Sequence record: MN445185.1
Source of the DNA: Escherichia phage vB_EcoM_EC001
Strand: one strand, 5' to 3'
DNA: 64,000 bases
Below are positions 62,878 to 63,087 of the stretch, in pieces. Each line of letters begins with the position of its first letter. Position 1 is the stretch's first letter. Under the pieces are notes generated by a model. It ran no database searches and was not told where the DNA came from. It saw only the letters and a program-made list of their open reading frames with translations. The translations under genes were made by a program, and so were the position numbers.

Positions 62878-63087
62878 TTACGCGTTTACGTAATAGATGG
62901 CGTTGCCGAACATTTTGTTGTTGCCGCCACAAGCGGTAACTTTAAATGCTACGCCGCCTTCAGCTTCGGCTTTCTTAGCCAGCGCTTCGGTAACTTCGGT
63001 AACGGTGCTCAGTCCAGAAACCTGAACGGTGCCTGCTTCTACCAGACCAGAAACGTCGCTGCCTGCGGTGATTTCACGAATGCTCAT
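62878..63087 (-). CDS. DUF1471 (YhcN/BhsA-like) domain protein without signal peptide
   Basis: LAKKAEAEGGVAFKVTA..GNNKMFGNAIYY resembles the BhsA/YcfR family domain; GGAG SD. Confidence 0.6.
   Translation of the reverse strand: MSIREITAGSDVSGLVEAGTVQVSGLSTVTEVTEALAKKAEAEGGVAFKVTACGGNNKMFGNAIYYVNA

What the first reader, a model, noticed from the sequence alone, without database searches (positions are those of the whole stretch)
62878..63087. Signal-less DUF1471 (BhsA/YhcN-like) domain gene with its own regulatory region
The 69-aa product aligns by eye to the mature domain of the enterobacterial BhsA/YcfR stress-protein family but lacks the signal peptide those periplasmic proteins carry. 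It looks like a captured host gene in a phage with a non-canonical compartment.
Basis: partly seen in the sequence, partly recalled or inferred. Interest (0 to 1): 0.5.

Follow-up and report, generated by a model that had tools for sequence, protein, structure and literature searches.

The report
Signal-less BhsA-like jumbo-phage virion protein
This small gene of an SPN3US-type giant Salmonella phage is a copy of a bacterial periplasmic stress-protein domain that has lost its export signal, sits next to the tail-spike gene and is a known minor virion protein, so it is a modestly interesting repurposed host domain and not a new kind of system.

Summary
ORF 62878..63087 (-) encodes 69 aa. It passes Pfam PF07338 (DUF1471/YdgH-BhsA-McbA; 43.5 bits against a cut-off of 27), models confidently as the DUF1471 fold, and has no signal peptide; an in-frame TAA directly precedes its ATG. 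The window is 98.5% identical to Salmonella jumbo phage SPN3US. The gene is SPN3US gp172, already labelled "DUF1471 domain-containing protein" in RefSeq and reported by mass spectrometry as the smallest (7 kDa) virion protein.

New here: a signal-less DUF1471 gene occupies the same slot in all five SPN3US-supergroup genera examined. The slot lies just downstream of the central tail-spike gene (gp173, homologue of phiKZ gp164) and convergent with the essential baseplate gene gp171. A Vibrio relative has the slot empty. In the phage collections searched, the domain occurs only in this group.

The gene has its own conserved phiKZ-type phage-polymerase promoter motif and shares a bidirectional terminator. 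It is under purifying selection. It exists as deeply diverged alleles that have been exchanged between lineages as an ORF-sized cassette.

Most likely it is an old host-derived domain repurposed as a minor tail/baseplate protein. Its molecular role is unknown. Interest is moderate: a new variant of a known kind.

The parts
62878..63087 (-). gp172 coding sequence: 69 aa, 7 kDa, signal-less DUF1471 domain protein (allele type A)
   Evidence: ORF; PF07338 at 43.5 bits; phrog_8068 at E = 3e-33; identical to SPN3US_0172 / YP_009153466.1; AlphaFold2 and Foldseek.
63095..63099 (-). Ribosome-binding site GGAGA, 7 nt before the ATG; an in-frame TAA at 63088-63090 excludes any longer N-terminus
   Evidence: Direct reading. 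GGAG/GAGG is conserved at this position in all 14 phage loci.
63152..63176 (-). Promoter-like element TTTACG-N16-TATG (with AAT immediately upstream at 63177-63179); predicted transcription start at the G, 63152, giving a 65-nt leader
   Evidence: TTTAC[AG]-N15/16-TATG is conserved in 11 of 14 phage loci, and TATG in all 14. It matches the phiKZ middle-promoter motif AAanTTACc centred near -24 plus the late TATG with G = +1 (PMC4666361). The pattern is enriched in the window: 9 found against 2.5 +/- 1.4 expected, 0 of 100 shuffles, and 7 of 9 sites lie at gene 5' ends. No sigma-70-like site in the region.
63088..63295 (-). 208-nt intergenic region between the spike gene stop and the gp172 start; AT-rich (38.5% GC)
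   Evidence: In most relatives it begins with a hairpin plus T-run that terminates the spike gene.
63120..63132 (-). Small 4-bp hairpin in the 5' leader (GAAC-ATAGG-GTTC)
   Evidence: RNAalifold on 7 leaders: 4 pairs, 2 with compensatory changes that come from one sequence only. Weak evidence.
62823..62847 (.). 11-bp GC-rich hairpin flanked by an A-run and a T-run: bidirectional intrinsic terminator shared by gp172 (-) and the convergent gp171 (+)
   Evidence: Terminator scan. The hairpin and flanking runs are conserved in the 12 of 14 loci where the DUF1471 gene abuts gp171; in the Wellington lineage a different hairpin precedes the next gene.
63296..64000 (-). 3' part of gp173, the central tail-spike (cell-puncturing) protein; the gene runs off the window end (310 aa in SPN3US)
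   Evidence: A profile of 12 homologues hits phiKZ gp164 (PDB 6orj/9xph) at E = 8e-36 and the Mu gp45 puncturing device at E = 2e-4. PF18715 Phage_spike matches 6 of 12. phrog_3216 'baseplate assembly protein'. The phiKZ ORF164 homology is also listed in a supplement of PMC5105663.
61553..62815 (+). gp171, essential tail/baseplate protein (homologue of phiKZ gp130), convergent with gp172
   Evidence: phrog_3337. PMC5105663 reports it as essential, tail-associated and homologous to phiKZ ORF130. In phiKZ, gp130 links baseplate star lobes and lies above the fibre attachment sites (PMC13250141).

Best explanation
gp172 is a minor virion protein of SPN3US-type jumbo phages. It descends from an Enterobacterales periplasmic DUF1471 (BhsA/McbA-type) domain that lost its Sec signal peptide.

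Proposed mechanism:
1. It is transcribed as its own short unit by the phage-encoded RNA polymerase, from a phiKZ-type middle/late promoter placed directly after the central tail-spike gene.
2. It is translated and stays in the cytoplasm, because it has no export signal.
3. It is incorporated at low copy number into the tail/baseplate.
4. As part of the apparatus that contacts and pierces the host envelope, it meets the envelope or periplasm from outside at the start of the next infection, which makes a signal peptide unnecessary.

Shown here: family and fold membership, absence of a signal peptide, conserved spike-adjacent position, conserved promoter and terminator elements, purifying selection, and cassette-like allele exchange.

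Taken from the literature: presence in purified virions.

Inferred: tail/baseplate location (as opposed to head), phage-polymerase transcription, and action at the envelope.

The overall confidence of 0.5 covers the whole chain. 'Genuine virion-associated signal-less DUF1471 protein' is about 0.8. 'Tail/baseplate-located and acting at the envelope' is about 0.4.
For: Family and fold:
- PF07338 is passed by this protein and by all 16 slot proteins.
- Fold match to solved DUF1471 structures.

No signal peptide.

Virion detection (PMC5694885):
- Found in CsCl-purified SPN3US virions with 4 unique peptides and 81% coverage.
- Spectral count per kDa is 0.86, similar to gp171 (0.74), gp170 (1.00) and the 12-copy portal (0.93).
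- It is not among the proteins flagged 'Head'.

Gene context:
- The order spike gene, DUF1471 gene, convergent essential baseplate gene gp171, then fibre paralogues is the same in Seoulvirus, Erskinevirus, Machinavirus, Wellingtonvirus, Derbicusvirus and in metagenomic contigs.
- gp173 is the phiKZ gp164-type central spike.
- Precedent: in phiKZ the spike carries a small tip protein, gp163.1, and the atlas treats the pair gp164/gp163.1 as homologous to T4 gp5/gp5.4 (PMC13250141). That the tip gene lies beside the spike gene in both phages rests on the gene numbering and my own knowledge.

Expression signals: conserved phage-type promoter motif and terminator, and no sigma-70-like promoter.

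Selection: dN/dS is 0.09-0.40.

Distribution: restricted to this phage group among 50,697 phage genomes, IMG/VR and BFVD.
Against: - No experiment places gp172 in the tail. The missing 'Head' flag may only reflect poor detection of a 7-kDa protein.
- It was absent from particles of a gp47 (head ejection protein) mutant. The authors say this could be biological or technical.
- Only 6 spectra support the virion detection.
- The spike already ends in a Mu gp45-like apex region, so a separate tip protein is not obviously required.
- The fold is not PAAR-like.
- No residues in gp173 or gp171 co-vary with the gp172 allele type.
- The promoter assignment rests on motif similarity to phiKZ, not on mapped transcripts. 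The spacing used in the enrichment test was chosen after looking at the gp172 site.
Confidence: 0.5

Rival explanations
1. gp172 is a non-structural cytoplasmic protein, for example an assembly helper for the spike or baseplate, or a host-modulating factor. It only co-purifies with virions in trace amounts.
For: The virion evidence is thin: 6 spectra, described as low abundance, and missing in one mutant preparation. The protein is small, soluble and acidic. It has its own promoter and is not embedded in an operon. No co-variation with neighbouring structural proteins.
Against: 81% sequence coverage at 100% identification probability in CsCl-purified particles. Spectral count per kDa is comparable to bona fide baseplate proteins and the portal. 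The strictly conserved position inside the baseplate module across five genera is typical of structural genes.
Confidence: 0.22
2. gp172 is packaged in the head as one of the many ejection proteins and is injected into the cytoplasm with the DNA. That would also explain why it needs no signal peptide.
For: It was the only wild-type virion protein not detected in 47(am1) particles, and gp47 is a head ejection protein (PMC5694885). SPN3US heads carry more than 50 proteins (abstracts of PMC10052503 and PMC7411985).
Against: It is not among the proteins flagged 'Head', a flag the papers base on detection in the tailless mutant. It is encoded in the baseplate/fibre module, not in the head-protein blocks. 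I saw no A-x-E prohead-protease motif, and it migrates at full size in the lowest gel slice (direct reading).
Confidence: 0.13
3. gp172 is an auxiliary 'moron' that acts like host BhsA/McbA, altering envelope permeability or stress resistance of the infected cell. It would reach the envelope by a non-Sec route or on lysis.
For: Its closest named families are BhsA, McbA and YbiJ. Several genome annotators called the orthologues 'multiple stress resistance protein BhsA'. The locus behaves as a mobile cassette.
Against: There is no signal peptide or other export signal in any of the 16 phage proteins. Scores are far below every NCBIfam equivalog cut-off: 39-41 bits against 90-110. It is a virion component in the literature. 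A strictly lytic phage gains little from long-term stress protection, which is an inference.
Confidence: 0.05

Closest known systems
Enterobacterial DUF1471 proteins (Pfam PF07338: BhsA/YcfR, McbA/YbiM, YbiJ, YhcN, YahO, SrfN, YdgH domains)
   Same: Same domain by sequence (43.5 bits) and by predicted fold (TM about 0.75 to the solved YdgH, SrfN and YahO structures). Same size as the mature single-domain proteins. Cellular relatives and phage hosts are all Enterobacterales.
   Different: No signal peptide, so it is not exported by Sec. It falls far below the cut-offs of every named equivalog. It is encoded by a lytic jumbo phage in its baseplate module, expressed from a phage-type promoter, and reported in virions. 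The C-terminal motif of allele A has drifted (FGNAIYYVNA instead of the usual HG.A..YK).
Small spike-tip proteins encoded next to the spike gene (phiKZ gp163.1 with gp164; T4 gp5.4 with gp5; PAAR proteins of type VI secretion)
   Same: A small protein encoded immediately beside the central spike gene, with low copy number in the virion. In phiKZ the homologous spike gp164 does carry a small partner of this kind (PMC13250141).
   Different: The fold is DUF1471 (beta-alpha-beta-beta), not a PAAR cone. No sequence or fold match to any chain of the phiKZ atlas entry appeared. The SPN3US-type spike has its own Mu gp45-like C-terminal region. Physical association with the spike is untested.
PHROG family phrog_8068 and RefSeq YP_009153466.1 (SPN3US gp172)
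   Same: This is the same protein: identical sequence to SPN3US gp172 and E = 3e-33 to the PHROG profile.
   Different: None at the sequence level. The databases record it as 'unknown function' or 'DUF1471 domain-containing' without linking virion presence, signal-peptide loss, spike adjacency or allele exchange.

Membership tests
DUF1471 / Pfam PF07338 YdgH-BhsA-McbA-like domain | Sequence match above Pfam's gathering score | tested here: met
   43.5 bits against 27, E = 3.3e-11, covering profile positions 2-54 of 55. All 16 slot proteins from related phages also match, best E = 3.8e-19.
DUF1471 / Pfam PF07338 YdgH-BhsA-McbA-like domain | Compact beta-alpha-beta-beta fold as in the solved YdgH, SrfN and YahO structures | tested here: met
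   AlphaFold2 mean pLDDT 89. The top Foldseek PDB hits are 4evu, 2m2j, 2ma8, 2jna and 2noc, with TM 0.67-0.77 and probability 1.00.
DUF1471 / Pfam PF07338 YdgH-BhsA-McbA-like domain | N-terminal Sec signal peptide and periplasmic location of the single-domain members | tested here: not met
   In-frame TAA directly before the ATG. No hydrophobic N-terminal segment in any phage member, against 55 of 62 bacterial relatives that have one. NCBIfam models align only from position 29-34. No dedicated signal-peptide predictor was available.
DUF1471 / Pfam PF07338 YdgH-BhsA-McbA-like domain | Taxonomic restriction to Enterobacterales | tested here: met
   The nine named clusters among the ten nearest cellular clusters looked up are all Enterobacterales: Salmonella, Phytobacter, Kluyvera, Citrobacter, Serratia, Yersinia, Tatumella, Raoultella/Klebsiella, Pantoea, Enterobacter and Cedecea. 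The phage hosts are Salmonella, Erwinia, Cronobacter, Escherichia and Proteus. A Vibrio-phage relative lacks the gene.
Named equivalogs BhsA, McbA and YbiJ (NCBIfam NF047859, NF040473, NF007611) | Whole-protein score above the curated equivalog cut-off | tested here: not met
   39.4, 40.9 and 29.6 bits against cut-offs of 90, 110 and 110. Annotations of the orthologues as 'BhsA' are therefore over-specific.
Spike-tip / PAAR-like proteins (T4 gp5.4, phiKZ gp163.1) | Gene adjacent to the central spike gene | tested here: met
   gp172 lies directly downstream of gp173, the phiKZ gp164 homologue, in all genera examined.
Spike-tip / PAAR-like proteins (T4 gp5.4, phiKZ gp163.1) | PAAR-type sequence or fold | tested here: not met
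   The Pfam scan gives only PF07338. The profile search and fold search against PDB return DUF1471 structures and no spike-tip chain.
Spike-tip / PAAR-like proteins (T4 gp5.4, phiKZ gp163.1) | Physically bound to the tip of the spike trimer | not testable with these tools
   This needs cryo-EM or a multimer prediction with interface scores. The co-variation test with gp173 was negative but had low power.
phiKZ-type middle/late promoters (non-virion RNA polymerase) | TATG with G as the start site, and for middle promoters AAanTTACc centred near -24 | tested here: met
   AATTTACG at about -26 to -19 and TATG at -3 to +1. Conserved across the phage loci. Definition taken from PMC4666361. Motif enriched in the window and located at gene 5' ends.
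phiKZ-type middle/late promoters (non-virion RNA polymerase) | Mapped transcription start and dependence on the phage polymerase | not testable with these tools
   No SPN3US transcript-start data were found in the library searched.
Virion structural proteins of SPN3US | Detected in purified particles | not testable with these tools
   Literature only: PMC5694885 reports gp172 with 4 unique peptides, 6 spectra and 81% coverage, and reports it missing in 47(am1) particles.

The most novel reading that the evidence does not exclude
gp172 is cargo of the cell-puncturing device. It would be a host-derived periplasmic domain mounted on or near the central spike and delivered into the host periplasm from outside when the tail contracts. 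There it would mimic or compete with the cell's own DUF1471 proteins to alter the envelope during genome entry. That would make it a phage counterpart of the effectors loaded on type VI secretion spikes. It would also explain the loss of the signal peptide and the exchange of alleles between lineages.
Probability: 0.15. Interest if true: 0.7.

Novelty: new variant of a known kind. Interest (0 to 1): 0.4.

Why it matters
DUF1471 proteins are abundant, stress-induced envelope proteins of enteric bacteria, and their molecular function is still unknown. A phage lineage that has kept a signal-less copy for a long time, in its tail-spike module and apparently in the virion, offers an independent handle on what the domain binds. 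It also adds a candidate accessory component to the poorly understood baseplates of nucleus-forming jumbo phages, some of which are being considered for therapy and biocontrol. The ORF-sized allele exchange between lineages suggests an interaction under diversifying pressure. Practically, annotations calling these genes 'multiple stress resistance protein BhsA' are over-specific and should read 'DUF1471 domain virion protein'.

Tried and rejected
1. The word-indexed homologue search returned only the close phage clade. The exhaustive HMM search was needed to reach bacterial relatives.

2. The giant proteins P0016, P0018 and P0075 gave multi-stretch hits in that search. They are repeat or adhesin-type proteins with compositional partial matches, not DUF1471 relatives.

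3. The first tree attempt timed out. The second gave meaningless bootstraps because saturated distances produced NaN values. Only the corrected run is used.

4. The first promoter pattern, with an 11-15 nt spacer, missed the gp172 site itself and was not enriched: 5 found against 3.2 expected. The 14-17 nt spacer was chosen after seeing the 15-16 nt spacing at gp172 orthologues. The enrichment of 9 against 2.5 therefore includes one site by construction. Without it the count is 8, which equals the largest shuffle value.

5. Goslar was first read as an 'empty slot'. I withdrew this because Goslar gp31 is a DUF7941 protein and its spike is gp13. Vibrio phage pVa-21 remains a valid empty slot.

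6. The test for residues in gp173 or gp171 that co-vary with gp172 allele type found 1 column each, against 0-5 in control partitions. This gives no signal.

7. PADLOC defence models gave no hit.

8. The sigma-70 promoter scan found none in the region.

9. Allele type does not follow host genus: both alleles occur in Salmonella and in Erwinia phages. A simple genus-level host-range role is therefore not supported.

10. I considered a fusion-chain AlphaFold run to probe gp172 partners and did not run it. The spike is a trimer, and the tool reports no interface confidence.

Full report
**1. Observation**

A GGAGA ribosome-binding site lies 7 nt upstream (63095-63099). The codon immediately before the ATG is an in-frame TAA, so the protein cannot be longer at its N-terminus.

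Family and fold evidence:
- It passes Pfam PF07338 (YdgH/BhsA/McbA-like, formerly DUF1471) with 43.5 bits against a gathering score of 27. The match covers essentially the whole 55-position profile.
- The NCBIfam models for McbA, BhsA, YbiJ, YhcN and YahO all match, but at 19-41 bits against equivalog cut-offs of 90-125. They align only from model position about 29-39 onward, so the signal-peptide part of those models has no counterpart.
- An AlphaFold2 model built on eight phage homologues is confident (mean pLDDT 89) and shows a beta-alpha-beta-beta fold.
- The top Foldseek hits in the PDB are every solved DUF1471 structure: YdgH 4evu and 2m2j, SrfN 2ma8 and 2jna, YahO 2noc and 2ma4. For the six best chains, TM normalised to the query is 0.67-0.77.

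**2. What genome this is, and what was already known**

The region is 98.5% identical to Salmonella phage SPN3US, a 240-kb Seoulvirus and relative of phiKZ. The protein is identical to SPN3US_0172, or gp172. Three things were already on record:
- RefSeq names it "DUF1471 domain-containing protein".
- PHROGs holds it as phrog_8068, function unknown.
- Ali et al. 2017 (PMC5694885) detected gp172 by mass spectrometry in CsCl-purified virions and called it the smallest SPN3US virion protein (7 kDa), of unknown function.

Details of that mass spectrometry:
- 4 unique peptides, 6 spectra, 81% coverage.
- Spectral count per kDa of 0.86. For comparison: gp171 0.74, gp170 1.00, the 12-copy portal 0.93, and the spike gp173 0.23.
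- gp172 is not among the proteins flagged "Head".
- It was the only wild-type virion protein not detected in particles of a gp47 mutant. The authors considered this either biological or a gel-sampling artefact.

I found no paper in the searchable library that connects DUF1471 or BhsA with jumbo phages.

**3. Neighbourhood**

gp172 lies between two tail genes.

Upstream, on the same strand, is gp173 (63296 to beyond the window end):
- A profile of 12 homologues hits phiKZ gp164 (PDB 6orj/9xph) at E = 8e-36.
- Its C-terminal part hits the Mu gp45 "baseplate puncturing device" at E = 2e-4.
- Six of the twelve match PF18715 Phage_spike.
- A supplement of Thomas et al. 2016 lists the same phiKZ ORF164 homology.

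gp173 is therefore the central tail spike.

Downstream and convergent is gp171 (61553..62815). It is essential, tail-associated and homologous to phiKZ gp130 (PMC5105663). In the phiKZ virion atlas, gp130 bridges the baseplate star lobes above the fibre attachment sites (PMC13250141).

Beyond gp171 lie the giant fibre/baseplate paralogues gp170, gp169 and gp168. The same atlas shows that the phiKZ spike gp164 carries a small monomeric tip protein, gp163.1, and treats the pair as homologous to T4 gp5/gp5.4. From the gene numbering and my own knowledge, both tip genes lie next to their spike genes.

**4. Conservation of the slot**

A signal-less gene of 68-78 aa that passes PF07338 occupies the same position (spike gene, DUF1471 gene, convergent gp171 homologue) in every SPN3US-supergroup phage examined:

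| Genus | Phages |
|---|---|
| Seoulvirus | SPN3US, pEa_SNUABM_29, SPAsTU |
| Erskinevirus | phiEaH2, Asesino |
| Machinavirus | Caitlin, Machina, pEa_SNUABM_4 |
| Wellingtonvirus | Wellington |
| Derbicusvirus | CR5, EarlPhillipIV |

The same holds in metagenomic contigs found through the exhaustive HMM search and in IMG/VR.

Vibrio phage pVa-21 is the outgroup. It has a true spike homologue (40% identity) convergent with the gp171 homologue. Between them is a 318-nt gap with no plausible ORF.

The family is confined to this phage group in every collection searched:
- tblastn with the most bacterial-like allele against 50,697 phage genomes found 61 records. All but one are 220-250 kb SPN3US-supergroup jumbo phages; the exception is the 197-kb record Salmonella phage STsAS.
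- All 8 IMG/VR loci are contigs of 224-248 kb.
- In the BFVD viral structure library, the only significant fold matches are an unnamed 67-aa viral protein (41% identical to gp172, TM 0.9, apparently a homologue) and Wellington gp189, which is from this phage group.

**5. Relation to cellular proteins**

The exhaustive HMM search ranks the phage proteins first (61-146 bits). Ordinary bacterial proteins of 78-92 aa follow at 57 bits or less, and in them the match begins at residue about 28-38, after a signal peptide. Nine of the ten nearest cellular clusters looked up carry source names, and all nine are Enterobacterales; the tenth is unnamed.

Maximum N-terminal hydrophobicity separates the groups cleanly. 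All 16 phage proteins score at most 1.15. Of 62 bacterial relatives, 55 score at least 1.65, and the seven exceptions look like miscalled starts or fragments.

In a neighbour-joining tree on 58 columns, the 14 small phage proteins form one clade, but with only 24% bootstrap support. A single origin is better supported by the shared slot and the shared signal-peptide loss than by the tree.

Several observations point to an old acquisition rather than a recent capture:
- Best identities to bacterial proteins are 40-54%.
- GC content (0.51) matches the phage.
- dN/dS between orthologues is 0.09-0.40.

**6. Allele exchange**

The slot proteins fall into well-supported types, with bootstrap support A 76%, B 87%, C 87% and D 100%. 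Groupings by phage genus receive 0%. Types A and B cut across taxonomy:

| Pair | gp171 identity | gp173 identity | gp172 identity |
|---|---|---|---|
| SPN3US vs SPAsTU | 85% | 73% | 42% |
| Caitlin vs pEa_SNUABM_4 | 86% | 86% | 42% |
| SPN3US vs Caitlin | 64% | 60% | 78% |
| SPAsTU vs Machina | 62% | 65% | 84% |

A sliding-window DNA comparison of Caitlin with pEa_SNUABM_4 shows 78-90% identity through the spike gene and the promoter region. Identity drops to 45-63% across the gp172 ORF and its short 3' flank, then recovers to 75-80% at the 3' end of gp171. The ORF has thus moved between lineages as a cassette; alternatively, old paralogues were lost differentially.

Both alleles occur in Salmonella phages and in Erwinia phages, so the allele does not track host genus. 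No residues of gp173 or gp171 co-vary with allele type beyond control partitions.

The Wellington lineage has expanded the slot. It carries a second signal-less DUF1471-like domain followed by an acidic, disordered tail of about 120 aa (gp189, and the 191-aa ORF in L006). It also has extra small ORFs.

**7. Regulatory region**

Upstream of gp172, 11 of 14 phage loci share TTTAC[AG], then 15-16 nt, then TATG. All 14 share the TATG. The element usually follows a hairpin and T-run that would terminate the spike gene.

In phiKZ, late promoters are defined by TATG with the G as the transcription start. Middle promoters carry AAanTTACc centred near -24, sometimes together with a TATG (PMC4666361). 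The window element has AATTTACG at about -26 to -19 and TATG at -3 to +1, with the predicted start at 63152. That fits the composite.

The pattern TTTAC-N14-17-TATG occurs 9 times in the window against 2.5 +/- 1.4 expected, and none of 100 shuffles reaches 9. Seven of the nine sites lie at gene 5' ends in a genome that is about 96% coding. One caveat applies: I chose the spacer range after inspecting the gp172 site. No sigma-70-like promoter was found.

Downstream, an 11-bp GC-rich hairpin (62823-62847) flanked by A- and T-runs is conserved and would terminate both convergent genes.

The signals look like those of the phage's own RNA polymerase, which is an inference from motif similarity.

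**8. Interpretation**

The simplest account that fits all of this is as follows. An enterobacterial periplasmic DUF1471 domain was acquired by an ancestor of the SPN3US supergroup, after its split from Vibrio-phage relatives. It lost its signal peptide and was retained as a minor virion protein encoded in the spike and baseplate module.

The missing signal peptide then has a clear rationale, because tails assemble in the cytoplasm. If the protein rides on the part of the tail that contacts or penetrates the envelope, it reaches the envelope from outside.

I give about 0.8 to "genuine virion-associated signal-less DUF1471 protein". I give about 0.4 to [quoted passage not shown], and 0.5 to the explanation as a whole.

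The rivals are:
- a non-structural cytoplasmic helper that contaminates virions (0.22);
- a head-packaged ejection protein, hinted at by its absence from the gp47 mutant (0.13);
- a BhsA-like auxiliary stress gene (0.05), which is hard to reconcile with the lack of any export signal.

**9. Comparison and novelty**

gp172 is a member of the DUF1471 domain family by sequence and fold. It fails the family's usual signal-peptide and periplasm feature, and it fails every named equivalog cut-off, so it should not be called BhsA.

It resembles spike-tip proteins (phiKZ gp163.1, T4 gp5.4, PAAR) only in gene position and size, not in fold. It cannot be filed with them.

The gene, its domain label and its virion detection are already public. 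What this analysis adds:
- the link between those facts;
- conservation beside the central spike across five genera;
- the empty slot in an outgroup;
- restriction of the domain to this phage group;
- the phage-type promoter;
- the ORF-sized allele exchange.

I rate it a new variant of a known kind, with moderate interest (0.4). The most novel reading still open is a host-derived periplasmic domain delivered by the puncturing device as an envelope effector. I put that at about 0.15 probability; it would be considerably more interesting if true.

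Noticed in passing
window 62878-63087, compared with L002, L003, L011-L015: Two deeply diverged alleles of the DUF1471 gene (about 42% amino-acid identity) are distributed independently of the flanking spike and gp171 genes and of host genus. In Caitlin vs pEa_SNUABM_4, DNA identity collapses across the ORF and its short 3' flank only.
   Followed up: yes
L016 3962-4522 (Wellington gp189) and 5036-5194; L006 7380-8881: The Wellington lineage carries a second signal-less DUF1471-like domain in tandem, fused to an acidic, disordered tail of about 120 aa. It also has extra 52-aa and 77-aa ORFs between the spike and the DUF1471 gene. The slot behaves as an insertion hot spot.
   Followed up: partly
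window 825-848, 7044-7067, 16153-16176, 40954-40979 (+ strand); 47072-47095 and 63152-63176 (- strand): The motif TTTAC-N14-17-TATG recurs in intergenic regions 24-100 nt upstream of genes. It is a candidate phiKZ-type middle/late promoter signal for this phage (9 sites against 2.5 expected).
   Followed up: partly
window 40906-40930 (-): Here the promoter-type TATG coincides with the ATG start codon of ORF 40417..40908. This could mean a leaderless transcript, or it could be chance.
   Followed up: no
window 63120-63132 (-): A small hairpin (GAAC-ATAGG-GTTC) in the predicted gp172 5' leader is conserved from CR5 to SPN3US. It has two compensatory pairs, both seen in one sequence only.
   Followed up: partly
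window 63296-64000 (gp173); L003 vs L012: The C-terminal part of the central spike (from about nucleotide 750 of the gene, overlapping the Mu gp45-like region) is markedly more divergent than the rest between pEa_SNUABM_29 and SPAsTU: 53-75% DNA identity against about 80%.
   Followed up: no
phage records LR535901, LR535903-LR535908, LR535911-LR535913 (SPFM series): Several SPFM genome records match the window in 34-37 fragmented pieces and encode truncated or chimeric 61-aa versions of gp172 (P0009-P0011). This looks like indel-rich assemblies, not biology.
   Followed up: no
L020 4252-5157 (Goslar gp31): In Goslar, the gene convergent with the gp171 homologue is a DUF7941 protein, not the spike (Goslar's spike is gp13). 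Synteny with SPN3US breaks here, and Goslar cannot serve as an empty-slot control.
   Followed up: yes
MH221129.1 (SPAsTU), NC_048016.1 (Wellington), Kwan and Stratton records: Orthologues are annotated 'multiple stress resistance protein BhsA'. The window protein reaches only 39 bits against the BhsA equivalog cut-off of 90, and the best E-value among the 16 slot proteins is 1.9e-16, so the name looks over-specific.
   Followed up: yes
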